IMG/VR virus record: IMGVR_UViG_3300021961_000134
Span: 1-54,241 of that record
Strand: one strand, 5' to 3'
Origin: a virus
Lineage: Duplodnaviria; Caudoviricetes
Length of the DNA stretch: 54,241 bases
Made by a program: the position numbers and the translations under genes. The notes under the pieces were generated by a model. That model saw only the letters and a program-made list of their open reading frames with translations, searched no databases and had not been told where the DNA came from. Shown one piece after another: positions 2,680-28,848 of this stretch (positions are counted from its first letter, which is position 1; every line of letters starts with the position of its first letter).

Positions 2680-2696
2680 TATATGCTCCTAGGTAT

Positions 2697-2712
2697 TATA
2701 AATATATTTATA
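2697..2712. promoter_or_regulatory. Back-to-back T4 late promoters (TATAAATA on both strands)
   Basis: Perfect 16-bp palindrome TATAAATATATTTATA: + strand TATAAATA at 2697-2704 and - strand TATAAATA at 2705-2712, between two divergent operons. Confidence 0.85.
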
Positions 2713-2735
2713 CATTACAATATTTGGTGGTAATC

Positions 2736-3320
2736 ATGTCAAAATTAAGTGAGCTCAGACTACACGCACGTAATAGAAAACTCCCAACAGCTGCATGTAT
2801 TGGCAGACTAGAACCACAATTCATATCCTATAACCTATTTATCTATGATAGTCTAAAGGGTGATCGTTCTAATTACACTGGGATGAAGACAGCAGAAGAG
2901 AGACACGAACATGCTGTAGCTGGTGTTAGTACTGGTGAAGATGTGTACAAGTTAGGTGATTTTTATAATCAAATTCACACATCTAAAATACAAATAAACG
3001 AAAATGATCTAAAAATTAAACTGCATAATACAAGATATGCAATTCTAGATTCTGGACATGATCTAGAATATCACATGGATCCACCAAACATATATAATAT
3101 TATAATTCCTTTATCAGATCCAATCACATTTAAGGCTCAAGTACCACATTTAAAGGGGGATGAGATTGATTGTGTTGATATAGAAATAGGTCAAATATAT
3201 TTTGTTAATCCTAGTTATATGCATATGACTAGCCATCTGTCCGATGAACCCAGAGTAGCTATCTTAGCTAACTTTAATTACAATGAGGAAATTTATGACA
3301 CCATTAGAGGGCTACTATGA
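2736..3320 (+). CDS. 2OG-Fe(II)/cupin oxygenase, aspartyl/asparaginyl beta-hydroxylase-like
   Basis: H-x-D (YHMD), a distal His (YMHMT) and a C-terminal PRVAIL strand. ATG at 2736 follows a GGTGG RBS. Confidence 0.65.
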   Translation: MSKLSELRLHARNRKLPTAACIGRLEPQFISYNLFIYDSLKGDRSNYTGMKTAEERHEHAVAGVSTGEDVYKLGDFYNQIHTSKIQINENDLKIKLHNTRYAILDSGHDLEYHMDPPNIYNIIIPLSDPITFKAQVPHLKGDEIDCVDIEIGQIYFVNPSYMHMTSHLSDEPRVAILANFNYNEEIYDTIRGLL

Positions 3321-4224
3321 ACTTGATCCTGAGGACAATCATTTTACTGATGTCACAGCAGATGTAACTCATAGATGTAATATGGCTTGTGGGAATTGTT
3401 ATATTCCTAACAGAGACATACCAGATATGGATACTGATAAACTCATAGAGTGTATCAGCAAGTTCCCTAAAAAAACAATGATAAGAATAATGGGTGCAGA
3501 GCCTACTGTAAGAGAAGATCTGCCAGACATTATTAAGAGAATTAGAGCATCTGGTCACAGATGCACTTTGCTAACTAATGGTTTAAGATTAGCAAGTAAC
3601 AGATATGTTCAGAGATTAAAGGAAGTTAAACTATCTCATATTTATATTAGTCTCAATGGTGTCGATAATGATGACTGGTATGAACAGATAGATGAACTTA
3701 GATGTGCTAAAACTAAAATGTTAGCTGTTGATAATATTGCTAGAAATAAATTTATTGTGGACACTGGTACTATTGTTGTTAAAGGAATAAATGATGAGGC
3801 CCCTGGAAGATTGGTCAGTGTGCTTAAACAAAAGGGAATAGATAACGCTCTTCTTAGAATAAAAAACGTAGGTCAATATGGTGACCATATGGTAGATTCT
3901 AACAACAATTATAGTCTTGATGGTCTAATAGAGTTATGTGCAAAACAATTTGGTATTTCTGTTGACTATATTAACTCTTTCAGAGATCATCCTATATACG
4001 GAGAGTATGTGGAAACTGATACGTTTATATTCCCAATAGATCCAAACTCTAAAGGCAAATGGATGCATAGAAGTGGGTATTGGGTCAAGATTACTGATTG
4101 GGATAGTGATCATGGTAATAAGCCCTATCCTTGGATGGGACAAAAGCGTAGAGGTAGAATAACAGAGGACTTCAAAATTGCTCCTCTCTCTGCTCATTTG
4201 GTGGCTAATTTAGGTGGTTATTAA
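3295..4224 (+). CDS. Radical SAM enzyme (MoaA-like core)
   Basis: CxxxCxxC (CNMACGNC), GAEPT, LLTNG, YISLNG and VVKGIND motifs. The ATG at 3295 follows a GAGGA RBS. Confidence 0.9.
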   Translation: MTPLEGYYELDPEDNHFTDVTADVTHRCNMACGNCYIPNRDIPDMDTDKLIECISKFPKKTMIRIMGAEPTVREDLPDIIKRIRASGHRCTLLTNGLRLASNRYVQRLKEVKLSHIYISLNGVDNDDWYEQIDELRCAKTKMLAVDNIARNKFIVDTGTIVVKGINDEAPGRLVSVLKQKGIDNALLRIKNVGQYGDHMVDSNNNYSLDGLIELCAKQFGISVDYINSFRDHPIYGEYVETDTFIFPIDPNSKGKWMHRSGYWVKITDWDSDHGNKPYPWMGQKRRGRITEDFKIAPLSAHLVANLGGY

Positions 4225-4673
4225 TGGAAGAAGATCAAGAAGAACCAACAATTGAAGTTCCTGTAGATACACCAATTCCTTCCTACTTCGAAAGACCAGA
4301 CAAAGAGTACGAAGCTGTACGGATACTATTCAACCCTAGAAAATATAAGTATTTTATTAAGACTGTATATGAAGACACTTATCAGGCATACTTAAATCCT
4401 TATGATTTTAAAACAAGATCTAGAATTAAATTTGAATATAATGAAGTTTCAAAACTATTTGTTATACATAAAAGTTTTAGTGGGTTTCAAGGGCACACAT
4501 CACCAATAATGGATTCTACATCACTGATGGTAGATAATTTTACTGTGGTTGATTATATGTGGTGTAAGGAATGGTTTCCGTTAACATTATTATATGATGA
4601 AAGTAAAACTGAGGAAAAGGTAGATGAATATCTAACTATTACTAGGAAATGGATTAATGACGGACCCAATTAA
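4224..4673 (+). CDS. Hypothetical protein
   Basis: 149-aa ORF, TAATG-coupled within the operon. Confidence 0.75.
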   Translation: MEEDQEEPTIEVPVDTPIPSYFERPDKEYEAVRILFNPRKYKYFIKTVYEDTYQAYLNPYDFKTRSRIKFEYNEVSKLFVIHKSFSGFQGHTSPIMDSTSLMVDNFTVVDYMWCKEWFPLTLLYDESKTEEKVDEYLTITRKWINDGPN

Positions 4674-5403
4674 TGTATATTTAATAAAGACAACCCATTC
4701 AGAAACTCCCCTTAGAGTTGAGGTGGATGTTCAAGATTATTATACTGATACTCATGTATATACATTATGTTCGCATGTCGATAGAAGTTTAAAAGCGAGA
4801 AAAGGATTTAATCTACTAACAAATGATACATTAGTTATGAGACCAGACGTTAAAATTATTAACGTAGGTCACCTAGATCTTTGGGGCTGGTGGAATAAAA
4901 TGTATCTGTTCAGTAAAGAAGTTAGTGGTGATGGGATCAATATATATTTTGATCTCGATCTAAAAATACAAAGAGATATAACCTGGGTTACAGATTTTTG
5001 TTTAGATGATAAAATTACCATGTTGTATTCTTATTGGAAACCTATCGACTGGGAACAAACTGCATACAAGGTATCTAATTACGACCCTAGTTTTAAGTAT
5101 TCAACATTAACTAATTCTTCATTCATGATGTGGAAGGGTAAACAATTTCATTACATATGGGAAGAATACAGTAAAGATCCAGATAAGTTTATGATAGAGT
5201 TCAGAGGTAACGATGACTATATGAACAGATTCCATAGAGATGTCATTAAAGTAATGCCTCGAGGTTTTGCTCACTCGACATTTTACGGTGCAGAAGCTGG
5301 ATCAGAATTCTTCCCTAGAGATAAAGATCCTTATAAAGAAAGACCTCAGTATCATTTAAATTTATTAAATGGATTAGGTAAGCCAAACAAAGTGAGGCAA
5401 TAA
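4657..5403 (+). CDS. Putative glycosyltransferase (GT-A fold, GT8-like phage family)
   Basis: WWNKMYLF, DxD motif (YFDLD) and NSSFMMW. Confidence 0.75.
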   Translation: MTDPINVYLIKTTHSETPLRVEVDVQDYYTDTHVYTLCSHVDRSLKARKGFNLLTNDTLVMRPDVKIINVGHLDLWGWWNKMYLFSKEVSGDGINIYFDLDLKIQRDITWVTDFCLDDKITMLYSYWKPIDWEQTAYKVSNYDPSFKYSTLTNSSFMMWKGKQFHYIWEEYSKDPDKFMIEFRGNDDYMNRFHRDVIKVMPRGFAHSTFYGAEAGSEFFPRDKDPYKERPQYHLNLLNGLGKPNKVRQ

Positions 5404-5404
5404 C

Positions 5405-6172
5405 ATGAAAATAAATTTATTGACTATGAAATGGGGCACTAAGTTTCAAGCAGATTATCCAAATTTAATACATCGGATGGCCAAGAGATGGATGCCTGAA
5501 TATGTTGAGTTAGAGTCATATTGTATGACTGATGATGGTACTGGTTTGGATAAAGATATAAAGGTTGTTGAATGTACTGAAAAATGGTTGTGGGATGATA
5601 TAACTAATAATGACCAATGGTTCTTTTGGGACGGTATTAAGATGTCGTTATTTGCACCACAACTTTGTGGTATTGAAGGTAGAATATTATTTTCAGATTT
5701 AGATAATTTGTTTATAGGACCATTGGATAGAGTAGTAAATACTCAACCTCCAGCTATGATACCATGTGATTGGATGCCTCCATGGCACCTAGGAATGCAT
5801 CAAGGCAATTACTTTCTTACTATGATGTTTAATGCTAGTTTAATTTATGTGGACAATACTCATCCTATAACTAATGAGATATGGGAACACTTCACTAAAA
5901 ACTACAAAAAAGCGAAAGGTTCTTTATATAGTGCTGACGCATATTTGTGGAGATGCTGGAGACATAAAATAACTGGGTATCCTAAAGGCACAGTTTATGC
6001 ATATAACAGAGGTGCTGCATATCCAGACAACTTCTCTTTAAGAGGATACGACTCGAAGTACATATACAGACCAGATCATAGTGTATGTATTTTTATGGAA
6101 GAACACGAACCGGATCCGCTTGATATAAAGGAAGGTTGGGTTTATGAAGAATGGAGTCAATACTTTAAATGA
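5405..6172 (+). CDS. Putative glycosyltransferase (GT-A fold)
   Basis: MKWGTKF...Y, CMTDD, FSDLD (DxD) and FNASL; paralogous to its neighbours. Confidence 0.75.
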   Translation: MKINLLTMKWGTKFQADYPNLIHRMAKRWMPEYVELESYCMTDDGTGLDKDIKVVECTEKWLWDDITNNDQWFFWDGIKMSLFAPQLCGIEGRILFSDLDNLFIGPLDRVVNTQPPAMIPCDWMPPWHLGMHQGNYFLTMMFNASLIYVDNTHPITNEIWEHFTKNYKKAKGSLYSADAYLWRCWRHKITGYPKGTVYAYNRGAAYPDNFSLRGYDSKYIYRPDHSVCIFMEEHEPDPLDIKEGWVYEEWSQYFK

Positions 6173-6819
6173 TTGTATGTATGAAGATTGGAGAAGGATA
6201 TGGTTCTAGATATGTAAACCAATTATATAAACAAGTTAAAGATTTTGATGAGGTTCTTTGTTTCACAGATGATCCTGAGGGACTAAAGCATGAGATAAAA
6301 GTTCATAAAGTAGATAGTTGGTGTACAGAAAGACTTTGGTGGAACAAAGTTATGTTATTTGAACCTGGCCTTTTTAAGGAAAAAGTCGTCTACGTTGATC
6401 TAGATTCGTTCATACATGATAGTCCCCGTCACGTTCTTAATCATGCTAATGAAAAATTGATACTATTAAAAACACATTGGTTTTCACCAGATACAAGAGA
6501 AAAAATACATATGTGTGATGTCAATTCATCAGTTATGGTAATAGGTCCACAAGGCTCTGAGCCATTATACAGAGAATGGTATGATAATAAAGTTAAACTT
6601 TTCAAATCGTTTTACGGTTTAGATCATTGGATATACAGAAGACACAGAAGTAATATAGATTATTTTCCTTCCGGAGTAGCATATTCTTACAGGTATGGTA
6701 ATCAATACCCAGATGACATAGATGAATTTAAAATAAGGACAGAAATTCCTATTACAGTATTAGATGACATCGTTGAAAAGGATAAAGCTATTGATAAATT
6801 ATGGAGAACCAAACAATGA
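6169..6819 (+). CDS. Putative glycosyltransferase (GT-A fold)
   Basis: CMKIGEGYGSRYVNQL, CFTDD, WWNKVMLF, YVDLD and NSSVM. Confidence 0.78.
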   Translation: MIVCMKIGEGYGSRYVNQLYKQVKDFDEVLCFTDDPEGLKHEIKVHKVDSWCTERLWWNKVMLFEPGLFKEKVVYVDLDSFIHDSPRHVLNHANEKLILLKTHWFSPDTREKIHMCDVNSSVMVIGPQGSEPLYREWYDNKVKLFKSFYGLDHWIYRRHRSNIDYFPSGVAYSYRYGNQYPDDIDEFKIRTEIPITVLDDIVEKDKAIDKLWRTKQ

Positions 6820-7427
6820 TTCATCCAGCACTAGATGAAATATACAGATTGTGGCACAGAGGTCTTGGATATGTTGCTGATAAACACGTGTACAAATTTA
6901 AAGATTTCAGTGAAAGTATTTTTGATACTCAAATTCAAAGCAAGGCTTGGTTGTGCCATTCTCTGAATAAATCAAAAGACAGAGAAATAAAACAAGTAGA
7001 AATCTTAGCAGGATGGTATGGAGTTGTTTCAATACCTATGATAATGTATACATTTGGTAGAGATGTAAAGATTAATATTTATGATGTAGATGAATGCACA
7101 CATGACATATCCAAATTTATGTTTGAAAACTATCAAAATGTAAATGTGTACCACAAGGATGTTGTATTTGATAATCTGGAATTAGAAGGTGATACAATCA
7201 TTAATAGTTCATGTGAACATATGTATGACATGTCAGACCTTGTAAATGCTAATAGAGGTAAGTTATTTGTACTTCAAAGCAACAATAACAGAAACGTAAA
7301 ATGGCTTCATATAAATTGCGTAGATACCTGTGAAGAGCTGATCGAACAAGCAGATATTAAAAATGTTTTGTATAAAGAAGCTACAAATATATATGGAAAC
7401 AAAAGAATGATGGTAATTGGAACATGA
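6816..7427 (+). CDS. Putative class I SAM-dependent methyltransferase
   Basis: Motif I-like VEILAGWYG, acidic IYDVD, INSSCEHM and LQSNN. The ATG at 6816 (ATGA overlap) follows GGAG. Confidence 0.7.
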   Translation: MIHPALDEIYRLWHRGLGYVADKHVYKFKDFSESIFDTQIQSKAWLCHSLNKSKDREIKQVEILAGWYGVVSIPMIMYTFGRDVKINIYDVDECTHDISKFMFENYQNVNVYHKDVVFDNLELEGDTIINSSCEHMYDMSDLVNANRGKLFVLQSNNNRNVKWLHINCVDTCEELIEQADIKNVLYKEATNIYGNKRMMVIGT

Positions 7428-7816
7428 AGTTAACTATTGATAGTCAAATATATGGGTTCACTTTTCTTATGTATGGTCAAATGATATTTGCTCATATGTT
7501 TGATAATAAAGAAAATGCTGAATGGGGCAGAATACAACCGTGTTTAAAGAAAATACACAGTGAATTAAATAGATCGAATAAAGACCTAGGATACAAAAGA
7601 GCTGTAGAATATAATGGGATGTCACCAATTACATATGATGGATTTCATGATTTGTATTACGTTTTCTATTGTATGTCAAATTACAGGGTTCCGGAAATAA
7701 GAATAGGACCAAATGCACAACTCGATCAAGAGAATAGAATCATGCATATGGTCCTATGTAACGTGTGTAGAAAATCACACAAAGATTATAATAGATGGAT
7801 ATCTAGATTTATTTAG
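7424..7816 (+). CDS. Hypothetical protein
   Basis: 130-aa ORF with an ATGA overlap; last gene of the rightward operon. Confidence 0.7.
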   Translation: MKLTIDSQIYGFTFLMYGQMIFAHMFDNKENAEWGRIQPCLKKIHSELNRSNKDLGYKRAVEYNGMSPITYDGFHDLYYVFYCMSNYRVPEIRIGPNAQLDQENRIMHMVLCNVCRKSHKDYNRWISRFI

Positions 7817-8672
7817 ACTCAAATTTTTCTCTTATCATTGGGCGTTCTACATAATTAGCTCCCCCAACAATAGGACCATCATATTTGAATTGTTCTATTT
7901 TAGAATAATCTAATTCCGCAATAGGCCATTGAAATTCTTCTCCTGTAAGTTCTTCAACCATATCCTTCCAAAGACGAACGTCAAATACAACATAACCTAA
8001 ATTGATTCTAGGGGACTTTGAATAAGCTGAGTGCCAAAGAATCTTATCATGTTCTTCTTTCTTCCCATAATAACCAACCTTCATACTCCAGCCAGGCTTA
8101 TCTGGAATGGTAACTATAGAATCGTTTAACGATTGTGCATCATCTTTATTTTTGCCTCGTGGTTTGTGTCCAGTTGATCTAGATGGATCCACAAATCTAA
8201 AATAACCATCACCTTCTGGATTATAAGTCATGAGAATGTTATATCCAGGTACGTTCCAGTTAGTATGCCATGCAATATATCCATCAGTAGGATACCACAT
8301 TTTTAACGCACAAAATCTCGATCCCATATAGTTACCTAATGTTTGATCAAGCCAATTACTTTTTTCAATACATTTTTGTGCTAGCTCTGGATTTATTCTT
8401 TCATGCTGCATCCATCTTTGCATTTGGTTAAAATCATAGCCCATAGAGTCTGGAGGAAATCCATCATGAGTATCATGATTCATAGACTCTAAACATTCTT
8501 GGCTACATGAAAATTCTGATCTATTTTCTCTATAAAATTTGCCACCTTGTGCTTTGAAACTTTTATCATTTCCAAAGCCATAGTTTTCTTCTAACTTTAA
8601 AGACCAAATAAAATCAGACCACTCATTTAAATACGTCAAAACTTCCGACTGAATTTCGTATATTGGGGTCAT
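7809..8672 (-). CDS. Putative 2OG-Fe(II)/cupin-fold oxygenase
   Basis: YPTDGYIAWHTN...ILMTY...GYFRF...LWHSAYSKSPRINLGY gives a double-stranded beta-helix pattern with H-x-N...H...R. Confidence 0.6.
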   Translation of the reverse strand: MTPIYEIQSEVLTYLNEWSDFIWSLKLEENYGFGNDKSFKAQGGKFYRENRSEFSCSQECLESMNHDTHDGFPPDSMGYDFNQMQRWMQHERINPELAQKCIEKSNWLDQTLGNYMGSRFCALKMWYPTDGYIAWHTNWNVPGYNILMTYNPEGDGYFRFVDPSRSTGHKPRGKNKDDAQSLNDSIVTIPDKPGWSMKVGYYGKKEEHDKILWHSAYSKSPRINLGYVVFDVRLWKDMVEELTGEEFQWPIAELDYSKIEQFKYDGPIVGGANYVERPMIREKFESK

Positions 8673-9492: not shown

Positions 9493-10044
9493 TTGTTGCA
9501 GCCTGCTCTTTCTTCAATTGTTCTAATGCAACTAAAGCTCCAACATATGCTGTGACTTCCATAATAGATTTAGCTTTTCTAATTTGAGATTTAACTTCTC
9601 TATTTTGAGCATCAGCTACAATAGGAATTTCAAATGCTTCAATCTTAGCTTGGAAAAGATCTTCTTGTTTACGCTTAGTATCCATTTCCTTCATTTCATC
9701 TTCTTCACGCTTACGTAGACGATTGATCTTATTGATTTCTCGTTTAGTAGCGTCATTAATTTGATCTTCAGTAAATGTTTTCTTTACCCAGAACCAAGCA
9801 GCAGCATGCTGCTGAGATTTATCTATTGTATGATTCTGAACTGAGTTATCAGGCATTCTTAAAAAGAATGTGATTAGGTTTCGAGCATCATTACCATAAA
9901 ATGCGTAAATTAATTCACCGTCACCAAAAGGATATTCTGGTTGTTTTTGTTCTTCTTCAGCCACTTTTAATTCACTCCTTTTCTTCAAAACGTCATCTTT
10001 AGACATACTAACTATATTATCTCTATTATTAGCTAACTGCTCCA
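9482..10044 (-). CDS. Hypothetical protein with a coiled-coil C-terminus (start uncertain: 10228, 10177, 10044 or 10006)
   Basis: The ORF is open from 10228, but 10073-10206 forms strong RNA hairpins, so a downstream start is plausible. It sits directly after the giant gene, so it may be an assembly partner (inference). Confidence 0.65.
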
Positions 10045-10072
10045 TCAAAATAGTTTCTTTAGTAGATGATTC

Positions 10073-10206: not shown

Positions 10207-10209
10207 TCT

Positions 10210-19107: not shown

Positions 19108-19116
19108 TAATATTCC

Positions 19117-22100: not shown

Positions 22101-25100
22101 TGTATCCGTTGAAATATTCAGGTGCTGATTGGTGATATGTAGTAATAGTGTTTCCGTAATATATTAAGCCAGTGTAGTTCGTTGCACTATAACTTGGACC
22201 GGAAGCGTATGATCTTGGACCTTGATACGTATTAGTATAAGTGCCTTCAAAATGTCCTACATAGGTTTTAGCATATTGAATTTGGCTTATATAACCACCA
22301 TAATAAAGTATACCAGCAAAGTTTCCTGTATAGGATCCAACATAAGATTTTAAATAATGTTTTACATAGTTACCATCATATACACCAGTATATGAACCAG
22401 CATAAGCACCAGTAAAGTTTCTTTCAAAATTATCAACATAGGTTTTATTAAACACGCCAGTATATGACTTTGCGAACCCAGCCCCAGAATAATAATTAGT
22501 AAATACATTTGTAGGAACGTATTCTGTAGCATCAGCTCCGCCCTGCCATACTCTACCAAGATACGTTGCTTGATAAACACCAGCTTGATCTGAATATGGA
22601 TCAGTAATACCAGAGGCACCACCACCTCCACCGCCACCACCTATTGTCCCATAGTTTTCTATGAATAGATGAACATCTGAACTTGAAGTTTTGATAGCAT
22701 CGCCACCGTTTGTACCAGAATATGACAAACCTCTTGGACCACCAATGTCGCCACCGTTACCACCTTTACCTACAATGTAACCACATGGATATGTGACAAC
22801 TCTTACAAGATGTTTTAGGTCTGCAGTTGTTGATCCAGACACGTTAGCTGTTACTGCCTGCATAGTGCTTAAATCAAGTGAGGAAGAAGTACTTCCATCT
22901 GATCCTAAAATAAATGTCTTGCTATGTTCTAATTGTTCACCTATAAAAATGTTAACCATCTGAAGGTTTTTATCTGGATCTTTACCTATTGAAAATAAAT
23001 AATCTCTGAGGTTAAAGTTGTTTATGTAGTATACAATCTTTCCGTCAATATAATCACTACCTCTTGAAGAACCTGCATTTTCAGAAATTAGTCGACCATT
23101 ACTATTAAATATGATGTCTGTATGATCATATCCAACATATGCGATTTTCCAATCGCCACCTTCTTTAACATTAATATATCTAACTTGTTTCCACGAATCC
23201 TCTTGTTGTACAAACATATTCTTTACAGATTGCCAACTACTGTCGTTCATAACAAACAACTTAGGATCAGAATTTTGAGTGTTTAATTGACCTGAAGAAG
23301 GACCTACGAAGCTAGTTGTTCCTCTGTAAACTTCTTGTCTTGTTAAATTACCGGTATAGTTTTTAACAAATTCAGTTTGACCTGTGTATGAAGGTTGGAA
23401 CGAACCCTGGAATTCAGACAAATATGTTTTAGTGTAATATAACAAGCCTTCATAGTTAGTAGATCCAGTATAATCCCCTACATATGCTGCGACAGGGGAA
23501 TATGAACCTAGCCAGTTTTTAAGGTAATCACTAGAATAAGCACCAATATAATTTTTATTGTATGATTTGTCGTAGTTCGTAGATGTAACTTTTGTATATG
23601 TACCAGTGTAGGCCTTTTGCCATATTTTAGTATATACACCTTCCCATGAATGCACATATGAAGCCGAATATGTACCTTCATATGTTTTAACGTATGAAGT
23701 GCCATCCCCTCTATATGCTTTAGCATATAACTTTTCAAAGGAACCCGTATATGATCTAGAATATATTTTGTTGTAAGCAACAAAGTTTTCTATTCTTTGT
23801 GTTGTATAATTTCTAGACCAAACTTTAGTATAAGCCTTGTCGTATGATTTACTATAAACTTTTTGATAGTATGCATAGCTTTCAGATATATATGATCTTG
23901 CATATAATTTGATATATTCACCTGCGTATTCTTTACGGTACCCACCTGTAAAATTACCGAGGTAAGTTCCATATGCAGGGCCCTCTAAATAATGTTTATT
24001 ATAATTTGTAGACCCAACATATGCTTTGACATATTCTTTATTAAAATCAGCTGAAGGTCTGTATGTCTTTTGCCAGTTCTTAGTATAATTAACTAAAGGT
24101 GAGAAGTATACATTAAATGTCTTTGTAAAGTTTGCTTGACCAGCAAAATAACCTGTAAATGTTTGTGCAAATCCACCATAAGTTTTTAGGAATCCATTGT
24201 ATTCCTTAATGTATCCACCAAAGTATGCATCGCCAGAATAAGCTTTTTCATAGCCTTTTATAAAGTTAGCTGAAGCGTTATAGTAACCGGTATAATAAAG
24301 AACCCCCTGATAATAATTTGGATTAAGGTATCCAGCATAGTAAATGTTACCATAGTAAGCTGCTGTTGCATACAGTTTGGCAAAATTTCTTAGGTATCCA
24401 GCAAAATATGCAGTACCAGAATATTCTTTGTTATATGCTCTAGAAAAATATCCAGTTCCAACAAATGAATGAGAATAATTTTTTAGGTACCCACCAAAAT
24501 ATGCAACACCCGTATAAGTTACAGAGTATTCTTTTGTGTATGATTTAAGGTAACCACTGTAGTATGGTAAACCTGAATAAGTTTTATTATAATCTTTAGC
24601 GTAGGTTTTAATATATCCAGCATAAAAAGCATCGCCCCTGTAAGATACATTATAAGTTTTATTATATTCAGCGAGTCGTACACCACCAAAATACGCATCC
24701 CCAAGATAAGCCCTAGACCAATATATTAGAGTGTAATTGGCTCCTGAATATCCACTAAAGAATAGAGGACCTATAAAGTCCTGATTGTAAACACCAGAGT
24801 AATATTTATTAAATACTCCAGTCCATATTCTACTGTATTCCTTAGTGTAACTTAATGTTCTAGAATAACCACCAAAGAAAAGAGGACCAGCATAATCTTT
24901 AGTATATGAGCCTACCCAAATCTTATTATATGTTGTAGACCAGTTTTTAGCATACTCTTTAGTATAGACGTTCTGATTAGACCACCCACCAAAGTATATG
25001 ACAGGACCGTGGAAAGATCTTGCATAATCAGGACCTGAAAAAGTACCAGACCATAGTCTTAAATATTCTTTGGAATAGTATCCTGATTCACTCGTGTACC

Positions 25101-28100
25101 CACTGTAGTACGTTAAGCCTCTATAAGCTCTATCAAACGTACCACTCCAAACTTTATTATATGCTTGATCAAATGTTCCTGTATACACTGCGTCATAATT
25201 TTTAGTAAATGTACCAGAATAATTTGTCGTTATGTCACCAACATATGTTGCTACATAGGTCTTTATATACGATCCTAAAAACGTTCTTGAATAAGCTGCC
25301 TGCCAGGATGACGTATATACAGAACCCCATTCTGATGTATAATATCTAATACCTGTCCAGTTTTTAGAATAATATGCAACTCCAGAATAGTTACCACCAA
25401 GTGCACCATAGTTTTTAATAAATTTAGCAAAAATGCCACTATAATTTTTGCTATATGTTTTTGTATAATCACCTACATATGTCTTTTCATAGTTCTTAAC
25501 ATAGTCTTTATTGTATTCACCAAGGTAATTTTTAGTATAAGTTTTTTCATATGAACCTTGGTATACTGCAGTGTATGCTTTTACATAATCAGCACCATAT
25601 TCTTTTACGTAATTCTTACTATATGCACCTTGATATGTTTTTGTATACGTCTTATTGTATACATTAGAATATACACCATCCCATGTTCTACTATATTGTT
25701 TTGTATATTCTTTATTGTACGCTCCTTCATATGATTTACTATATCCTGCAACAAATGTTTGAACATAATCCCCTTGATATGTGTGTGAATATATCCCTTG
25801 GAAAACTTGTTGATAAGTTTTTTCATATTCTCCTACCCATACTTTAGCGTAGGCTTTGTTGAATTCATTACCATAATCACCAGCATATATTGTAGTGTAT
25901 ACTGCACCGTATTCGCCAATATAAGTTTTATTATAATCTTTGACCCAAGCTGACTCGTATGTCTTTACCCAGTCTTTACTATAATATCCTGTTTGAGCTG
26001 CATATGCTTTAACATAAGTTGTAGTATAAGTTTTGTCGTAATTTTTAGTCCAGTTTCTATCATAATTTGCAGTATAAAATCCAGTAAAGGCACCTGAATA
26101 TGTCCCTGTAAACACACTACCAAACGAACCTTCCCAAACCCTATCATAATTTTTAGTCCAGTTTCTGGAATATGTTAAAGACTGAATATATCCTTGGTTG
26201 AAGTATCCTGTATAAACACCTGACCAAATTCTTTGATAATTCTTAGACCAAACCTTTGTATAAGATAGAGACTGAATATATCCTCGGTTGAAGTATCCTG
26301 TGAAAACTCCAGTGTAAGCACCTTGCCATATCTTGTTGTAATCTTTGTTGTAGGCAGTAGTACCAGCAAAGAAACCTTGGAAAGCTAAAGCAAACCCAGA
26401 AAAATATGCATTACCAGAATACGCTTTAGAATAATCTTTTAAAAATGATCCAGTGCCTGTGAAGAATCCAGTAAAATATTGTACTGATTGATAATAATTG
26501 GGATTAAGGTACCCCGAATAATAGATATTACCATAATAAGCTGTTCCAGCAAACGTCCTAGCATATGATCTGGAATACCCAGCATAGTATGCTATACCTG
26601 AATATTCTTTAGTATATTCGCCAGAAAAGTATCCGGTTCCAACATACCAACCAGAAAAATTTCGTTGATAGTTAGGAGATAGAAACCCACCGTAGTAAAT
26701 ATTACCATAATATAAAGGGCCTATATATGTTTTTGTATATGTTTTATTCCAATCATGTATGAACACACCAGTATATGTACCAGCATATGACTTTACCCAT
26801 GTTCTGATATATCCATTATAATTTGCATTACCTAGATATGATGTAGTCCAATCCCTAGAATAATCATTTGTGTATCCACCGGTGTAGTTTCCTGCCCAAG
26901 CTCTAACCCAAGTTCTAAGATATCCATTATAATTTGCATTACCAACATACGCTGCTTCATAATTAATATTATATGTTTTATTAAAAGAACCTACAAAAGA
27001 GTTTCCCCAATCGTGGGTAAAAGCACCAGTATATGTTCCTGACCACACCTTTGAATATGTAGCAGTATAAGTTGTACTGTATGTTTTGTTCCAGTCTTTT
27101 GTATACGTGTTTAAGTAGTCTGTTTCTGGTAACCCAACATATGTTCCAGAGTAGGCCTTTAAAAAGGTTCCATTATATGTTGTTAAATATGACTTAGTAT
27201 AATCACCAGCCCATACACGATCATAAGATTTGGTATACAATCCCTGGAATATTTGTGCATATGTTTTAGTATACACCGCATCATAACTTCCAGCATATAC
27301 TTTGTTGAAATCTCCAACATATTCACCGCTATAGTCTTTACTGTAAAATGCAATGTAGGTATGATCATAGTTTTTACTATACGTCTTTACGTATATACCA
27401 GCATAGTTAGTGGTGTATGTTTTGTTGTATTCTTTTTCATACGAACCGACCCAATCTTTATTGTAGGTCTTTTCATAGTTTTTACTGTATTCCCCAAGAT
27501 AAGTTTTGACATAATCTTTAGCCCACAACTTAGAATATGCAGTGTTGTAATCTTTAGAATATTCACCTAGATAATTTTTATGATATACTGATTCATATGA
27601 ACCTGTATATGTTGCAACATAATTTTTAAGATAAGTTTTACCATATTCCCCTTGATATAACTTTAAATAATTTTTAACATATGTGCCTTCATATATTAAA
27701 GCACCAAAAGAAGTTAGTCCGCTGTAATCACCTGTGTATTGAGTTGCACCACCCTCAAAGTTAATTATTGCAACATAACCTGCGGTACCAGCATAATCAG
27801 CAGTATATTGTGGGGCGCCATAATCTTGCAGACCTGAGTATGCTTCTGATATTTGATAATTAGCAGTATAGGTAACAACGCTAGTATAGTTCTTAGCATA
27901 TTCTTTATTGAATGCTAGCTCAGATACCCAAGCTGCTTGTCCTTCATAGGTTTTACTATAACCTACGTAACCACTATATTCTCCTAAAAACCCTTCTGAT
28001 ATTGTTACTATTCCAGAATATGAACCAATACCTACATATGCTCTAGAAAACTGGGTATACCCAGTATAATACTCACCAGAATAGCTTTGGTAGCTTATTG

Positions 28101-28848
28101 CCCCCCCATATGCTTTATTATACTGAACAGGTCCTCCAACATAATTTAAAAACGTATTATATACTGAAGTATAGGTACCTGTATATGTTGCTGGCGCATT
28201 ATATTCCTTTGAATACGCTCTTTGAAATTCACTTTCGTAATATCGTGTACCAAGATATGCTTTGTTATAGTAAACAATTCGATCAGCAGTACCAGTATAA
28301 TTTTTTGCATAGTCAACAAAACCGTTGAAACCTTCACCATAAGTTCTTATATATGTTTGAGCGCCTTCATACGTACCAGTGTATATTCCACCTCTATAAT
28401 ACGCAGGACCTATGTATGTTACTGGACGCGAGTAGTTAGTGACGTTCCCATATGTGCCTTGGTAAATAGCAAATTGGTTGGCATCTGCCCAAATACTATC
28501 AGGTTGATTTGCTGCTGAAGCATATTCTTTAGAATATTGAATAGTACCTGCATACACTGCTGCTGCTTCATAGGTTGCAGTATAGGTATCAACGTCTATG
28601 GAATTGTAGTTTTGGGTCGTTACATATGTTGCTGTGTAACCTACTGGACCGGATGCAAAGTTACCATGCCAGGAAAGGGTTGATGTTCTACGTACAGTAT
28701 AAACGCCTTGATACCCATTATAGAATCCGCTATAAGCATTTGTATATGACATAAGAGCATTATGAGTAGACTCTCTTAGATAAGAGACTTGTCTATCTCT
28801 ACTCTCTCCTGCGTATTCCGATGCGTAAATTCTAGAGGCGTAACTCAT
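19117..28848 (-). CDS. Giant Tyr-periodic repeat protein (3243 aa) containing a split gp38-like adhesin domain
   Basis: YxxxY periodicity, plus non-repeat segments YIVGKGGNGG...GTNGGDAI...IENYGTIGGGGGGGG (~22610-23280) and GGVGGNLGQVG...GGLPGAAVVG...EGNILG (C-terminus) that match T2/T6/S16-type gp38 glycine-rich motifs. Confidence 0.85.
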   Translation of the reverse strand: MSYASRIYASEYAGESRDRQVSYLRESTHNALMSYTNAYSGFYNGYQGVYTVRRTSTLSWHGNFASGPVGYTATYVTTQNYNSIDVDTYTATYEAAAVYAGTIQYSKEYASAANQPDSIWADANQFAIYQGTYGNVTNYSRPVTYIGPAYYRGGIYTGTYEGAQTYIRTYGEGFNGFVDYAKNYTGTADRIVYYNKAYLGTRYYESEFQRAYSKEYNAPATYTGTYTSVYNTFLNYVGGPVQYNKAYGGAISYQSYSGEYYTGYTQFSRAYVGIGSYSGIVTISEGFLGEYSGYVGYSKTYEGQAAWVSELAFNKEYAKNYTSVVTYTANYQISEAYSGLQDYGAPQYTADYAGTAGYVAIINFEGGATQYTGDYSGLTSFGALIYEGTYVKNYLKLYQGEYGKTYLKNYVATYTGSYESVYHKNYLGEYSKDYNTAYSKLWAKDYVKTYLGEYSKNYEKTYNKDWVGSYEKEYNKTYTTNYAGIYVKTYSKNYDHTYIAFYSKDYSGEYVGDFNKVYAGSYDAVYTKTYAQIFQGLYTKSYDRVWAGDYTKSYLTTYNGTFLKAYSGTYVGLPETDYLNTYTKDWNKTYSTTYTATYSKVWSGTYTGAFTHDWGNSFVGSFNKTYNINYEAAYVGNANYNGYLRTWVRAWAGNYTGGYTNDYSRDWTTSYLGNANYNGYIRTWVKSYAGTYTGVFIHDWNKTYTKTYIGPLYYGNIYYGGFLSPNYQRNFSGWYVGTGYFSGEYTKEYSGIAYYAGYSRSYARTFAGTAYYGNIYYSGYLNPNYYQSVQYFTGFFTGTGSFLKDYSKAYSGNAYFSGFALAFQGFFAGTTAYNKDYNKIWQGAYTGVFTGYFNRGYIQSLSYTKVWSKNYQRIWSGVYTGYFNQGYIQSLTYSRNWTKNYDRVWEGSFGSVFTGTYSGAFTGFYTANYDRNWTKNYDKTYTTTYVKAYAAQTGYYSKDWVKTYESAWVKDYNKTYIGEYGAVYTTIYAGDYGNEFNKAYAKVWVGEYEKTYQQVFQGIYSHTYQGDYVQTFVAGYSKSYEGAYNKEYTKQYSRTWDGVYSNVYNKTYTKTYQGAYSKNYVKEYGADYVKAYTAVYQGSYEKTYTKNYLGEYNKDYVKNYEKTYVGDYTKTYSKNYSGIFAKFIKNYGALGGNYSGVAYYSKNWTGIRYYTSEWGSVYTSSWQAAYSRTFLGSYIKTYVATYVGDITTNYSGTFTKNYDAVYTGTFDQAYNKVWSGTFDRAYRGLTYYSGYTSESGYYSKEYLRLWSGTFSGPDYARSFHGPVIYFGGWSNQNVYTKEYAKNWSTTYNKIWVGSYTKDYAGPLFFGGYSRTLSYTKEYSRIWTGVFNKYYSGVYNQDFIGPLFFSGYSGANYTLIYWSRAYLGDAYFGGVRLAEYNKTYNVSYRGDAFYAGYIKTYAKDYNKTYSGLPYYSGYLKSYTKEYSVTYTGVAYFGGYLKNYSHSFVGTGYFSRAYNKEYSGTAYFAGYLRNFAKLYATAAYYGNIYYAGYLNPNYYQGVLYYTGYYNASANFIKGYEKAYSGDAYFGGYIKEYNGFLKTYGGFAQTFTGYFAGQANFTKTFNVYFSPLVNYTKNWQKTYRPSADFNKEYVKAYVGSTNYNKHYLEGPAYGTYLGNFTGGYRKEYAGEYIKLYARSYISESYAYYQKVYSKSYDKAYTKVWSRNYTTQRIENFVAYNKIYSRSYTGSFEKLYAKAYRGDGTSYVKTYEGTYSASYVHSWEGVYTKIWQKAYTGTYTKVTSTNYDKSYNKNYIGAYSSDYLKNWLGSYSPVAAYVGDYTGSTNYEGLLYYTKTYLSEFQGSFQPSYTGQTEFVKNYTGNLTRQEVYRGTTSFVGPSSGQLNTQNSDPKLFVMNDSSWQSVKNMFVQQEDSWKQVRYINVKEGGDWKIAYVGYDHTDIIFNSNGRLISENAGSSRGSDYIDGKIVYYINNFNLRDYLFSIGKDPDKNLQMVNIFIGEQLEHSKTFILGSDGSTSSSLDLSTMQAVTANVSGSTTADLKHLVRVVTYPCGYIVGKGGNGGDIGGPRGLSYSGTNGGDAIKTSSSDVHLFIENYGTIGGGGGGGGASGITDPYSDQAGVYQATYLGRVWQGGADATEYVPTNVFTNYYSGAGFAKSYTGVFNKTYVDNFERNFTGAYAGSYTGVYDGNYVKHYLKSYVGSYTGNFAGILYYGGYISQIQYAKTYVGHFEGTYTNTYQGPRSYASGPSYSATNYTGLIYYGNTITTYHQSAPEYFNGYNSLRNFVGPGYGTVAYYGNVFYSGYLNPNYYSRTLYFTGNYASGAGFLNTTTFALSYGTEVYYGGGYQNYVKTYTGIFTGNFVKHYTGTIYYNREFLGTYLGSYLKTYVGSYTGGYSRSFIGTYAGSYEKGYTKAYSGTYSKTYTGTYAISFEAVGGQFIVPYSKQYSGLLYYQSYLGYSGGGANYGVDYVKNYVGGYVGQASYAEGRDGIAGSYPGVVETYVGEHTYTKTEYVKAYIGAYTPAQAFTGSWSGGNYVGTVTAYTSVPGYTANYGGSYNTYVSSTIYAGVSDEFIKTFSTNYSKGYTNDYNTTSFTGVYSGVTVYGGTVYYMGTEYERSFERAYAGAYSGEFNKTYLTVGSSASFEGLYTKEYNVSYNVTYVGHYQKSYSSEPSAYGGGYYQSNFVGAYIGSYDATYVKQYNKLYTQAFEGTYLGSYEATYQQTFEKTYSKSYDRTYNAYAGDFVAEYSVDYTAAYVGDFTKEYTKAFVGSYQGSFSKTYNKEYTKNYSGSYSRTFTGDYQDTYAREYIAEYVGNYTKSYNVTFTAEYSGTYTKEYLKGYNKSYSVNYNRVRIVGYEGLQGYSRAASLLYNGYESADTFAPYGGNYGSEVNYNISTNYTGEYSTALDVDYNKIWAAGYQTTYVGYTSALGWTDDYGTTYSTTPESYHAVEAVYSVTYENAYAWTAYYTATSALYFDQTYGKDYAKNWSKTYGKNWQASYANVFVGYYSKSYTAVYNKTWSGSISYLGPVYFGGGAFGGNWTRTYTGSYSAIAYYGNIYYGGAYLNETLYSGLTPYTGVFHLSTSYLGNANYSATYTKAWTHIYAGSYANEFVADYAKSYVKIYGATYSKAYVGSYARTYEGANYLQEINRSFFGTSDIVGVPGSGGAGWTVGISPKSSKYESAQLKVEPRNGTLINGGLRGQPNYDYGNTRLPGGVGGNLGQVGMGGGEEFRRKSRFHNCGDGGLPGAAVVGFDINNVSFIYEGNILGDTTYKYQ

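What the first reader, a model, noticed from the sequence alone, without database searches (positions are those of the whole stretch)
2697..28848. Candidate new system: giant Tyr-periodic virion fibres with a dedicated late modification cassette
Seen: two adjacent ~3000-aa proteins dominated by Y/T/G/K/S with an aromatic residue at every fourth position. They sit next to four DxD glycosyltransferase-like genes, a radical SAM enzyme, two 2OG-Fe(II)-like oxygenases and a methyltransferase. One GT and one oxygenase are on the same strand immediately downstream of the giant genes. The rest follow an exact T4 late promoter, and the whole block is embedded between baseplate and neck genes. Established: T4-like DNA-modification genes are normally early/middle and lie in replication regions. 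Inference: these enzymes act on virion proteins, for example by O-glycosylation of Tyr/Thr/Ser, hydroxylation, methylation or radical-SAM aromatic cross-linking, producing a chemically decorated fibre.
Basis: partly seen in the sequence, partly recalled or inferred. Interest (0 to 1): 0.93.

Follow-up and report, generated by a model that had tools for sequence, protein, structure and literature searches.

The report
Aromatic-repeat phage fibre with linked enzymes
Two giant proteins of an uncultured marine T4-like phage are extreme expansions of an undescribed repeat-protein family that is almost always followed by a small helical protein, a sugar-transferase-like gene and a hydroxylase-like gene, which suggests an enzyme-matured virion fibre.

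Summary
Two adjacent ORFs (2965 and 3243 aa) carry an aromatic residue at every fourth position: lag-4 conditional probability is 0.88 and 0.63, against 0.06 in a control ORF. They lie between baseplate and neck genes, beside GT-like, radical-SAM, cupin-like and methyltransferase-fold genes.

The interpretation needs refining. Giant A is the orthologue of a widespread protein that is usually small (314-751 aa). That protein has an N-domain, a (Y/F)-(T/S)-G-x repeat and a conserved C-terminal cap. It has no Pfam, PHROG or PDB match.

In three overlapping sets of IMG/VR loci, 205 of 208 testable loci place this protein next to the same trio: a helical protein, a GT8-like DxD transferase and a prolyl-hydroxylase-like DSBH protein with an invariant HxN...H motif.

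The other enzymes (three GT paralogues, the methyltransferase-fold protein, radical SAM, second cupin) are variable and are absent from a clade that also has giant forms.

Lineages with 90-93% Phe in place of Tyr keep the trio, so conserved Tyr-specific chemistry is unlikely.

Modification of the fibre is the best-supported reading, but it rests on inference only. Published work on pelagimyophages reads such GT8 genes as host O-chain modifiers.

The parts
10210..19107 (-). Giant A (2965 aa). N-domain at residues 1-217, then about 2700 aa of aromatic-x-(G/K)-x tetrads, then a C-terminal ...LWVRVA end. It is the orthologue of the widespread small repeat protein.
   Evidence: The N-domain HMM built from the small proteins hits residues 1-217 at E 1.4e-29. 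No Pfam or PHROG match.
19117..28848 (-). Giant B (3243 aa). A paralogous repeat protein without the N-domain. It has non-repeat inserts (about 1830-2010) and a Gly-rich C-terminal domain.
   Evidence: The N-domain HMM does not match (E 0.91). The insert and C-terminal domain are conserved in related loci at 27-49% identity.
9482..10228 (-). o248b: a small helical protein. Its conserved core is about 145 aa, with a conserved motif in the long C-terminal helix (alignment A14). Candidate chaperone or adaptor.
   Evidence: It lies directly downstream of the repeat gene in every testable locus. Alignment A14. No PHROG match.
8623..9492 (-). o289: a GT8-like (GT-A) glycosyltransferase-like protein with an invariant D84-x-D86.
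   Evidence: PDB profile: 18 of 20 hits are glycogenin, best E 0.0066. Pfam on members: 14 of 27 Glycos_transf_2, 3 of 27 GT8, 2 of 27 Nucleotid_trans, all sub-threshold. The Atlas gives a lead only.
7809..8672 (-). o287: a DSBH (2OG-oxygenase-fold) protein, nearest to protein prolyl hydroxylases. H136-x-N138...H214 is invariant, and R222 is kept in at least 90% of members.
   Evidence: AF2 pLDDT 86.4 with a 140-sequence MSA. Foldseek PDB: 22 hits at E<=1e-3. VIA wide: 50 of 50 rows are 2OG oxygenases, top Z 8.8. BFVD search.
7424..7816 (+). o130: a small conserved protein of unknown function.
   Evidence: Conserved at 30-46% identity in the window's clade. No family match.
6801..7427 (+). o208: a class-I SAM-methyltransferase-fold protein (methyltransferase or aminopropyl-transferase-like).
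   Evidence: Profile A8 against PDB: spermidine synthases at E 4.3e-4 to 6.2e-4, methyltransferases at E 0.2.
6169..6819 (+). o216: a GT-like DxD protein, paralogue of o255 and o248.
   Evidence: phrog_1962 'glycosyltransferase' at 2.7e-12. hhalign probability 100 to o255 and o248. Profile A7 against PDB finds only LgtC (E 0.022, 0.11) and a Skp1 alpha-galactosyltransferase (E 0.54).
5405..6172 (+). o255: a GT-like DxD protein, the most conserved of the three paralogues.
4657..5403 (+). o248: a GT-like DxD protein, the third paralogue.
4224..4673 (+). o149: a small conserved protein of unknown function.
3283..4224 (+). Radical SAM enzyme with a CxxxCxxC motif and no SPASM/twitch Cys cluster. 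Accessory: present only in part of the window's clade.
   Evidence: Pfam Radical_SAM 8.9e-17. The nearest families are TrsS, Tes, MoaA and PqqE, all far below their cut-offs. Distribution.
2736..3320 (+). Cupin / 2OG-oxygenase-like protein with an invariant H113-x-D115...H163/H167. Accessory, with the same distribution as the radical SAM gene.
   Evidence: Asp_Arg_Hydrox at E 0.0032, below cut-off. Alignment A13. The PDB profile search found nothing significant.
2697..2712 (.). Divergent pair of exact TATAAATA motifs (T4 late-promoter consensus), facing the + strand cassette and o111.
   Evidence: The motif lies upstream of the o111 homologue in 13 of 13 loci checked.
10275..10282 (-). TATAAATA motif inside the 3' end of giant A, 54 nt upstream of the o248b start.
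   Evidence: The same arrangement occurs in L025.
29954..29961 (-). TATAAATA motif upstream of o222, heading the o222-o97-B-A-o248b-o289-o287 gene string.
   Evidence: The motif lies upstream of the gene preceding the repeat gene in 6 of 13 loci checked.
29144..29812 (-). o222: a protein resembling the C-terminal parts of many tail-fibre families.
   Evidence: 34 PHROG families of tail-fibre or baseplate proteins match; the best is 2.4e-30.
28861..29154 (-). o97: a small conserved protein between o222 and giant B.
2344..2679 (-). o111: a small conserved protein that closes the module in nearly all related loci.
   Evidence: phrog_1084 at 2e-27 and phrog_3304 'L-shaped tail fiber protein assembly' at 3.9e-24. 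Distribution.

Best explanation
The region is the host-recognition part of the late structural module of an uncultured marine T4-like myovirus. Its core is a four-gene unit conserved across several hundred related viral contigs.

The four genes are:
1. A fibre-like structural protein. It has an N-terminal domain of about 220-250 aa, a repeat of variable length built from (Y/F/W)-(T/S/x)-(G/K/R)-x tetrads, and a short conserved C-terminal cap.
2. A small helical protein.
3. A GT8-like DxD glycosyltransferase.
4. A prolyl-hydroxylase-like DSBH protein with an HxN...H...R motif.

In this phage the repeat of the orthologue (giant A) has grown to about 2700 aa. A second repeat protein without the N-domain (giant B) lies just upstream.

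Most likely mechanism (inferred, not shown):
- The genes are transcribed late, together with the fibre genes.
- The helical protein assists folding or assembly.
- The GT8-like enzyme O-glycosylates the repeat protein from a host UDP-sugar. Thr/Ser at repeat position 2 is a more likely acceptor than Tyr.
- The DSBH protein hydroxylates the same substrate, or a residue in its invariant non-repeat parts.
- The three further GT paralogues and the methyltransferase-fold protein, where present, would extend or cap the glycan.
- Radical SAM and the second cupin are lineage-specific extras.

Shown: the periodicity, the orthology, the gene linkage and the fold or family leads. Inferred: virion location, co-transcription, catalysis and substrate.
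For: Periodicity and size.

Orthology of giant A with the small proteins: N-domain HMM E 1.4e-29, and a shared C-terminal LW[VIL]R[TV]A-type end.

Linkage.
- Starting from o289 relatives (31-73% identity), 72 of 72 testable loci have a repeat ORF just upstream. The background is 9 of 1337 other ORFs.
- Starting from the repeat protein, 67 of 67 testable loci have o248b, o289 and o287 within 3 kb downstream on the same strand.
- Starting from distant o289 relatives, 66 of 69 do.
- The only GenBank phage hit (C48C1, Kyanoviridae) has a 3347-aa repeat protein followed by the same trio and none of the other cassette genes.
- The core order stays fixed while the other cassette genes change strand and number.

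Operon layout. The genes overlap or lie 9-12 nt apart on one strand, behind TATAAATA motifs. Terminator-like sites are at background level (4 found, 3.1 expected).

Enzyme identity.
- o289 resembles glycogenin/GT8.
- o287 has the DSBH fold, and its top structural neighbours are protein prolyl hydroxylases, including Dictyostelium Skp1 PhyA and the PBCV-1 collagen P4H.
- The GT paralogue profile hits only GT8 enzymes, among them a Skp1 glycan galactosyltransferase.

Neighbour. An ORF resembling tail-fibre C-termini lies directly upstream.
Against: - No proteomic, structural or expression data exist. Virion location and modification are inferences.
- All the loci belong to one broad group of T4-like phages with conserved synteny. 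The three sets overlap and contain near-identical contigs, so the counts are not independent events.
- The enzyme assignments rest on marginal sequence scores: E 0.0066 for o289 and 0.022 for the paralogues, with Pfam below cut-off.
- For o287 the Z scores (8-8.8) are in the range the tool calls common.
- o287 has HxN in place of the canonical HxD/E metal triad in 140 of 140 sequences, so it may not be a standard oxygenase.
- Pro makes up only 0.3% of repeat residues, so a prolyl hydroxylase has no target inside the repeat.
- A distant branch of the o287 family sits next to thymidylate synthase and replication genes with no repeat protein nearby: 0 of 80 loci.
- Published work reads the GT8 genes of this genomic island as host O-chain modifiers (PMC7029224).
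Confidence: 0.45

Rival explanations
1. The GT-like enzymes, and perhaps the other enzymes, modify the host cell surface (LPS O-chain or capsule) during infection, to block superinfection or to alter receptors. On this reading they lie among fibre genes only because this island gathers host-interaction genes.
For: This is the published reading for GT8 genes in the pelagimyophage host-recognition cluster between the baseplate and gp14 (PMC7029224, passages). GT8 enzymes such as LgtC, which the paralogue profile hits, act on LPS. The accessory GT paralogues vary in number and strand between lineages, as expected for host-adaptive genes.
Against: The near-invariant adjacency and shared strand of o289 with one particular structural-type protein over a 31-73% identity range is not expected for a host-surface enzyme. 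The genes lie behind late-promoter motifs in a string with fibre genes, and late expression suits exclusion poorly (inference). No membrane segments, flippase or sugar-nucleotide genes were noted in the cassette; this comes from the ORF list and family scans only.
Confidence: 0.15
2. The trio are assembly factors rather than modifying enzymes. The helical protein, the GT-like protein and the DSBH-like protein would act as chaperones or as minor fibre components that have kept an enzyme fold. The HxN variant might be catalytically dead.
For: Tail-fibre chaperones are typically encoded just downstream of their fibre gene (general phage knowledge, recalled). o287 lacks the canonical Asp/Glu metal ligand in 140 of 140 sequences. 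The linkage is equally strong for the non-enzymatic o248b.
Against: The DxD of o289 is invariant in 27 of 27 homologues. H136, N138 and H214 of o287 are invariant, and R222 is kept in at least 90% of members, across 140 sequences at 22-57% identity. Such conservation points to a maintained active site.
Confidence: 0.2
3. The enzymes hypermodify phage DNA. A TET/JBP- or AlkB-like dioxygenase, a methyltransferase and glycosyltransferases would together make glycosylated bases.
For: The o287 model also aligns to NgTET1 (Z 7.6) and to AlkB-family proteins (Foldseek ABH2 at 1.7e-4, TM target 0.37), within about 1 Z unit of the prolyl hydroxylases. A distant branch of the family lies beside thymidylate synthase, a helicase and UvsX. 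A methyltransferase-fold gene and GT genes are present.
Against: The branch found in the window is always in the structural operon next to the repeat protein. The best matches of o208 are spermidine synthases, not DNA methyltransferases. The C48C1-like clade keeps the trio without any methyltransferase-fold gene or GT paralogue nearby.
Confidence: 0.05

Closest known systems
Host recognition cluster of pelagimyophages (Zaragoza-Solas et al. 2020, PMC7029224; passages read)
   Same: A large variable island in the structural region between the baseplate (VrlC) and neck gene gp14 of marine T4-like phages. It holds tail fibres, several GT8 glycosyltransferases and radical-SAM cassettes.
   Different: The passages I read do not mention an aromatic-periodic repeat protein, an oxygenase-like gene or a fixed four-gene unit. 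The GTs are read there as host O-chain modifiers. I could not see the supplementary tables, which may list these genes. The window's o289 and repeat protein have no tblastn match in the cultured pelagiphages of the GenBank phage set.
Glycogenin (GT8), the best PDB match of the o289 profile
   Same: The N-terminal nucleotide-binding region and the DxD motif align (E 0.0066). Glycogenin glycosylates a protein Tyr (recalled).
   Different: The score is marginal and Pfam GT8 is below cut-off. Lineages with 90-93% Phe in place of Tyr keep o289, so a glycogenin-like Tyr acceptor is unlikely to be the conserved target.
Skp1 hydroxyproline-glycosylation pathway of Dictyostelium/Pythium (PhyA prolyl hydroxylase plus several GTs, including a GT8-type galactosyltransferase)
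   Same: A P4H-type DSBH enzyme and several GT-A enzymes act in turn on one protein. PhyA (6t8m, Z 8.6) and the Skp1 galactosyltransferase (6mw5, E 0.54) are among the hits.
   Different: The scores are weak. o287 has HxN rather than HxD. The repeat has almost no Pro. The pathway's mechanism is recalled, not tested here.
Viral collagen-like fibres with virus-encoded hydroxylases and GTs (PBCV-1 prolyl hydroxylase 5c5t; Mimivirus L230, recalled)
   Same: A virus-encoded repeat structural protein paired with a 2OG hydroxylase and a glycosyltransferase. The PBCV-1 enzyme is a structural neighbour of o287 (Z 8.4).
   Different: Those viruses infect eukaryotes and their repeats are Gly-X-Y with Pro/Lys. 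Here the host is presumably a bacterium and the repeat has period 4 with an aromatic residue.
Virion glycosylation in mycobacteriophages (Freeman et al. 2023; seen only as a cited reference, content recalled)
   Same: Phage-encoded GTs next to structural genes that glycosylate virion proteins.
   Different: The phage group, the GT families and the substrates (capsid and tail tube) are all different. There is no hydroxylase partner and no periodic repeat.
T4 fibritin (wac), by gene position (recalled)
   Same: A fibrous protein gene lying between the short-fibre/baseplate genes and gp13/gp14.
   Different: There is no sequence or family match. Fibritin is a coiled coil with a foldon, whereas this is an aromatic/Gly tetrad repeat.

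Membership tests
GT8 / GT-A glycosyltransferases (o289) | DxD metal/nucleotide-sugar motif | tested here: met
   D84 and D86 are invariant in 27 of 27 aligned homologues. They align to the DxD of glycogenin.
GT8 / GT-A glycosyltransferases (o289) | Significant match to a curated family model | tested here: not met
   Pfam Glycos_transf_2 scores 18.2 bits against a cut-off of 23.3 for the window protein. Among members, 14 of 27 hit GT2, 3 of 27 GT8 and 2 of 27 Nucleotid_trans at E<=0.01, all sub-threshold. NCBIfam gives nothing.
GT8 / GT-A glycosyltransferases (o289) | GT-A fold | not tested
There is only profile similarity to glycogenin (E 0.0066) and an Atlas lead.
GT8 / GT-A glycosyltransferases (o248, o255, o216) | DxD motif and similarity to known GTs | tested here: inconclusive
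   D77 and D79 are invariant in 41 of 41. phrog_1962 matches o216 at 2.7e-12. The PDB profile hits only LgtC (E 0.022, 0.11) and 6mw5 (E 0.54). Pfam GT8 is found in 2 of 41 members.
2OG/Fe(II) oxygenases (o287) | Double-stranded beta-helix fold | tested here: met
   AF2 pLDDT 86.4. Foldseek PDB gives 22 hits at E<=1e-3, led by 2OG oxygenases. VIA wide gives 50 of 50 rows as 2OG oxygenases, Z 6.4-8.8.
2OG/Fe(II) oxygenases (o287) | HxD/E...H iron-binding triad | tested here: not met
   H136-x-N138...H214 is invariant in 140 of 140 sequences, with Asn where Asp/Glu is expected. The assignment of positions is by sequence pattern, not by superposition.
2OG/Fe(II) oxygenases (o287) | Basic residue that binds the 2OG C5 carboxylate, about 8-10 residues after the distal His | tested here: inconclusive
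   R222 lies 8 residues after H214 and is kept in at least 90% of 140 sequences. Its role is inferred by analogy only.
2OG/Fe(II) oxygenases (2736-3320 ORF) | HxD...H triad and a family model match | tested here: inconclusive
   H113-x-D115 and H163/H167 are invariant in 4 of 4. Asp_Arg_Hydrox scores 17.8 bits against a cut-off of 22.6. The best PDB profile hit has E 0.58.
Radical SAM superfamily (3283-4224) | CxxxCxxC cluster motif and a family model above cut-off | tested here: met
   The CxxxCxxC motif lies near residue 30. Pfam Radical_SAM scores 62.2 bits against a cut-off of 29.5.
SPASM/twitch peptide-modifying radical SAM enzymes | C-terminal auxiliary Fe-S Cys cluster | tested here: not met
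   NCBIfam matches cover only the N-terminal core (residues 19-224) and lie far below their cut-offs. The C-terminal 130 aa hold a single Cys.
Class I SAM-dependent methyltransferase fold (o208) | Rossmann core with a Gly-rich motif I and an acidic residue after strand 2 | tested here: inconclusive
   The profile hits spermidine synthases at E 4.3e-4 and methyltransferases at E 0.2. D95 is invariant, but motif I is non-canonical: its centre is W72-x-G74 where G-x-G is expected.
T4-type late transcription unit | TATAAATA upstream of the genes | tested here: met
   Motifs at 2697(+), 2705(-), 10275(-), 29954(-) and 48425(+). The motif is conserved before o111 in 13 of 13 loci. It is not enriched overall (7 found, 12.8 expected).
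T4-type late transcription unit | Late sigma factor (gp55/gp33-type) and late timing | not testable with these tools
   The contig is 54 kb and holds no transcription genes. No RNA run was listed.
Known tail-fibre or fibrous-protein families (giants A and B and the small repeat proteins) | Match to any fibre family or solved fibrous fold | tested here: inconclusive
   No Pfam or PHROG match. The best PDB profile hit has E 0.11. The repeat was never folded.
Glycogenin-type Tyr O-glycosylation | A conserved Tyr acceptor | tested here: not met
   Four lineages have 90-93% Phe at the aromatic position (L181, L182, L313, L326) yet keep o248b, o289 and o287.

The most novel reading that the evidence does not exclude
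The tetrad repeat, with an aromatic residue and Gly alternating on one face, is a new type of fibrous protein architecture. Marine T4-like phages would tune its length from about 20 to about 680 tetrads to build appendages of very different reach. Building it would require a dedicated maturation trio: a helical chaperone, a GT8-type protein O-glycosyltransferase, and a prolyl-hydroxylase-fold enzyme with an unprecedented His-x-Asn metal site. If so, this would be an enzyme-matured glyco-fibre in tailed phages of Gram-negative marine hosts. It would also overturn the current reading of these GT8 genes as host LPS modifiers.
Probability: 0.3. Interest if true: 0.85.

Novelty: new variant of a known kind. 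Interest (0 to 1): 0.74.

Why it matters
If the reading is right, several things follow.
- A large group of abundant uncultured marine myoviruses decorates a length-variable appendage with its own glycosylation and hydroxylation machinery. That would affect host recognition, adsorption range, stickiness to particles and grazing.
- The GT8 genes that dominate the pelagimyophage-type host-recognition islands would need to be re-annotated.
- The repeat is a clean, experimentally tractable object. The 314-370-aa forms can be co-expressed with three small genes.
- The invariant HxN variant of the 2OG-oxygenase site is an enzymological question in its own right.
- Even if the modification idea fails, a protein family that keeps an aromatic residue in strict register for 952 residues without DNA-level repeats is a structural puzzle.

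Tried and rejected
- Megablast of 2000-10300 and 36517-50000 against GenBank phages gave no match.
- tblastn of o255 gave no match.
- tblastn of o289 and of the small-protein N-domain hit only C48C1.
- The first AF2 job on o287, with a 5-sequence alignment, failed (pLDDT 41.8). It was repeated with 140 sequences.
- PDB profile searches gave nothing usable for o287, the repeat protein, the second cupin or the first shallow o289 profile.
- Pfam on the 140 o287 relatives found one member at E 0.0026 for 2OG-FeII_Oxy and nothing else meaningful.
- Complex prediction on three copies of a 325-aa repeat protein returned 'no answer' (score 0.00). This is not evidence either way.
- The search for homologous proteins on giant A residues 1-700 found only 3 long proteins. 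It is word-limited on repeats and was not informative.
- The look-up of sequencing runs listed no RNA holder, so nothing can be said about expression.
- The short-sided joints in read laying (21-23 letters) look like repeat artefacts and were not interpreted.
- Sigma-70-like promoters and terminator-like sites are at background level.
- Literature searches for C48C1, 'tyrosine glycosylation' with bacteriophage, tyrosine-rich fibre repeats, and P4H plus GT plus collagen-like in phages found no paper on this repeat or module (listings only).
- I considered and rejected a conserved Tyr-O-glycosylation or Tyr cross-linking function, because Phe-dominated lineages keep the trio.
- I considered and rejected recent slippage as the source of the periodicity, because DNA repeats are nearly absent.
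- I considered and rejected an assembly artefact, because four runs cover the genes.
- I did not test which ORF is the VrlC of the literature.

Full report
WHAT THE WINDOW IS. The window is the whole record held (one 54,241-base contig), with GC near 0.34. PHROG scans place it in the structural module of a T4-like myovirus. The genes are gp14- and gp13-like (3-1492), gp8-, gp7-, gp6-, gp25- and gp5-like, gp48/gp53-type baseplate genes, then gp4-, gp2-, gp3- and gp26-like genes from 36517 onward. The gp6-like protein is at most 36% identical to any GenBank phage (Caulobacter Cr30, Sinorhizobium phiM12, Pelagibacter phages), and megablast finds nothing. The finding's interval lies between the baseplate and neck genes.

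THE OBSERVATION. The two giant ORFs are real.
- An aromatic residue recurs at lag 4 with conditional probability 0.877 in A and 0.630 in B. At lags 1-3 the value is 0.008-0.09, and in the adjacent 2159-aa ORF it is 0.064.
- In A the register is unbroken for 238 tetrads (952 residues).
- Both ends of A show a 26-residue super-period, made of six tetrads plus two residues.
- Position 1 of the tetrad is Y/F/W. Position 2 is mostly T/S/A/E. Position 3 is G or K. Position 4 is variable.
- Tandem Repeats Finder sees only 14 short, diverged arrays in 18.6 kb, so selection on the protein maintains the pattern rather than recent slippage.
- Contigs from four metagenome runs cover every bin of 9000-28900 with SNPs only. 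Two of the runs may be the source of the window; the other two come from other studies.
- Neither giant matches any Pfam or PHROG family.

THE ENZYME-LIKE GENES.
- Radical SAM (3283-4224) is secure: Pfam 8.9e-17 and a CxxxCxxC motif. Its nearest named families (TrsS, Tes, MoaA, PqqE) are far below their cut-offs, and it has no C-terminal Cys cluster.
- o289 (8623-9492) has an invariant DxD (27 of 27). With a 27-sequence profile, 18 of its 20 PDB hits are glycogenin, the best at E 0.0066, aligned over the nucleotide-binding half and the DxD. Pfam hits of family members are all GT-A families but sub-threshold. The Atlas gives matching leads.
- o248, o255 and o216 are paralogues (hhalign probability 100). 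o216 matches phrog_1962 'glycosyltransferase' at 2.7e-12. Their joint profile finds only LgtC and a Skp1 alpha-galactosyltransferase, all GT8, at E 0.022-0.54.
- o208 has a methyltransferase-type Rossmann core, with spermidine synthases at E 4e-4.
- The 2736-3320 ORF has HxD...H and a sub-threshold Asp_Arg_Hydrox match.
- o287 (7809-8672) had no sequence match at first. A profile search of 1.84 billion representatives then found 987 clusters at E<=0.001. With a 140-sequence alignment, AF2 gave pLDDT 86.4.
- Foldseek (22 PDB hits at E<=1e-3) and VIA-align (50 of 50 rows) both place o287 among 2OG/Fe(II) oxygenases. The top VIA rows are protein prolyl hydroxylases: Tpa1p Z 8.8, a PHD 8.7, Dictyostelium PhyA 8.6, PBCV-1 collagen P4H 8.4. 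TET and AlkB enzymes lie within about one to two Z units. These Z values are in the range the tool calls common, so only the superfamily is secure.
- The o287 family keeps H-x-N...H invariant in 140 of 140 sequences, with Arg eight residues on in at least 90% of them. This is Asn where the canonical triad has Asp/Glu.

WHAT THE GIANTS ARE.
- Twelve IMG/VR loci found with giant A showed the whole block conserved in three lineages. Giant A ranges from 1363 to 2708 aa in them. In one lineage the cassette is inverted onto the fibre strand.
- The only GenBank phage with an o289 relative, C48C1 (Kyanoviridae), has a 3347-aa 'hypothetical protein' with the same periodicity (lag 4: 0.54). It shares the N-terminal motif and the C-terminal end. 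It is followed by o248b-, o289- and o287-like genes and then an o111-like gene, with none of the other cassette genes.
- Searching IMG/VR with an o289 alignment gave 237 relatives. I examined the 80 best loci plus the C48C1 locus, 81 in all. Nine had less than 900 nt of upstream sequence and were not testable. In all 72 testable loci the ORF just upstream has at least 8 in-register aromatic pairs in a 60-aa window. Among the other ORFs of those loci, 9 of 1337 do.
- In most of these loci the protein is only 324-448 aa. It has an N-domain of about 250 aa, a repeat of 80-150 aa and a conserved C-terminal cap.
- An HMM of that N-domain matches giant A residues 1-217 at E 1.4e-29 and does not match giant B.
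- Giant A is therefore the orthologue of a widespread small protein. Giant B is an added paralogous repeat protein.

RECIPROCAL AND DISTANT TESTS.
- Starting from the small repeat protein (363 relatives; 78 new loci), 67 loci had at least 2.3 kb of downstream sequence. All 67 carry o248b, o289 and o287 within 3 kb on the same strand. Several lineages have two tandem repeat genes, and three have a 1.4-kb insertion before o248b.
- Starting from the most distant o289 relatives (121 relatives; 80 loci), 66 of 69 testable loci have the repeat ORF, o248b and o287 in place. The other three have o248b and o287 but no repeat ORF within 2.5 kb. Two of those three have one 3.4 kb further upstream.
- Most loci of this distant clade have repeat proteins of more than 1000 aa and only the trio plus o111. 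They have no GT paralogues and no methyltransferase-fold gene.
- The three sets overlap and contain near-identical contigs, so these counts are not independent events. They do span o289 identities from about 30% to 73% and 145 distinct repeat-protein sequences.
- Against a simple 'enzyme = fibre modifier' rule, a distant branch of the o287 family (429 relatives; 80 loci) has none of the module genes nearby: 0 of 80 loci. In one such locus it lies after UvsX, a DnaB-like helicase and thymidylate synthase, and before a radical SAM gene.

TRANSCRIPTION CONTEXT.
- Exact TATAAATA motifs lie before the + strand cassette (2697), o111 (2705, minus strand), o248b (10275, minus strand), o222 (29954, minus strand) and the gp4-like gene (48425).
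- The motif is not over-represented: 7 were found against 12.8 expected.
- It recurs before the o111 homologue in 13 of 13 loci checked, and before the gene preceding the repeat gene in 6 of 13.
- From o222 to o287 the genes overlap or are 9-12 nt apart. Terminator-like sites are at background. Late co-transcription is therefore a reasonable inference, but it is not shown.

MECHANISM. The best reading is a fibre-like structural protein with a dedicated maturation set.
- The linkage of one structural-type protein with a GT8-like enzyme and a P4H-fold enzyme recalls protein hydroxylation-glycosylation systems: Skp1, viral collagen-like proteins and glycogenin. These comparisons are partly recalled from memory.
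- Two details constrain the chemistry. Four lineages have 90-93% Phe at the aromatic position yet keep the trio, so the Tyr hydroxyl is not the conserved target. Thr/Ser at position 2 has a median of 49% and is the more plausible acceptor.
- Pro is 0.3% of repeat residues. A hydroxylase target, if any, would be another residue, or the invariant prolines of the N-domain.
- The extra GT paralogues and the methyltransferase-fold protein vary between clades. Radical SAM and the second cupin occur only in part of the window's clade.

PRIOR KNOWLEDGE. Zaragoza-Solas et al. 2020 (PMC7029224; passages read) describe a hypervariable 'host recognition cluster' in pelagimyophages, between VrlC and gp14. 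It holds tail fibres, GT8 glycosyltransferases and radical-SAM cassettes, and they propose host O-chain modification. The general setting is therefore known. The periodic repeat family, its size range, the fixed four-gene unit and the HxN DSBH partner were not found in the passages I read or in four literature searches.

VERDICT. The strong result is comparative: a new repeat-protein family tightly linked to three genes. The functional claim remains an inference, with confidence about 0.45. The live rivals are host-surface modification, non-catalytic assembly factors and DNA modification.

Noticed in passing
window 51142-51489 (+): A 115-aa ORF is 65-70% identical to ORFs in distant loci (L146, L132, L152) that otherwise share almost nothing recognisable with the window. 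It is an unusually conserved small protein of unknown role.
   Followed up: no
window 51493-53619 (+): A 708-aa ORF has weak tape-measure or tail-lysin PHROG matches. It lies where GC rises to 0.42, against about 0.34 elsewhere.
   Followed up: no
window 10210-19107 (giant A residues 290-626 and 2575-2885): Both ends of the repeat show a 26-residue super-period (six tetrads plus two residues), while the centre is strictly period 4. At the DNA level only a few 84-nt (28-aa) units are detectable.
   Followed up: partly
L181, L182, L313, L326 (repeat ORFs): In these lineages the aromatic position is 90-93% Phe rather than Tyr. Across 145 distinct proteins the Tyr share ranges from 7% to 100%.
   Followed up: yes
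L211, L213, L228, L229, L239, L241, L247, L248, L250, L281, L300 and others: Many lineages carry two tandem repeat-protein genes before the trio. L215, L217 and L227 have a 1.4-kb insertion between the repeat gene and o248b.
   Followed up: partly
L146:856-2645 and 7334-10474: In a distant phage, nucleotide-sugar epimerase- and UDP-glucose-dehydrogenase-like genes lie beside UvsX. The o287-family paralogue there sits between thymidylate synthase and a radical SAM gene.
   Followed up: partly
window 2697-2712: The two late-promoter motifs form one 16-base palindrome that serves divergent genes.
   Followed up: partly
window 30025-36504 (-): A 2159-aa protein with DUF4815 (6.2e-53) and phrog_358 (3e-303) precedes the module in nearly all related loci. 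It may be the 'VrlC' of the pelagimyophage literature, but I did not test this.
   Followed up: no
window 19117-28848 (giant B residues about 1830-2010 and 3080-3243): Giant B has non-repeat, Gly-rich inserts with poly-Gly runs. They are conserved at 27-49% identity in related loci and match no family.
   Followed up: no
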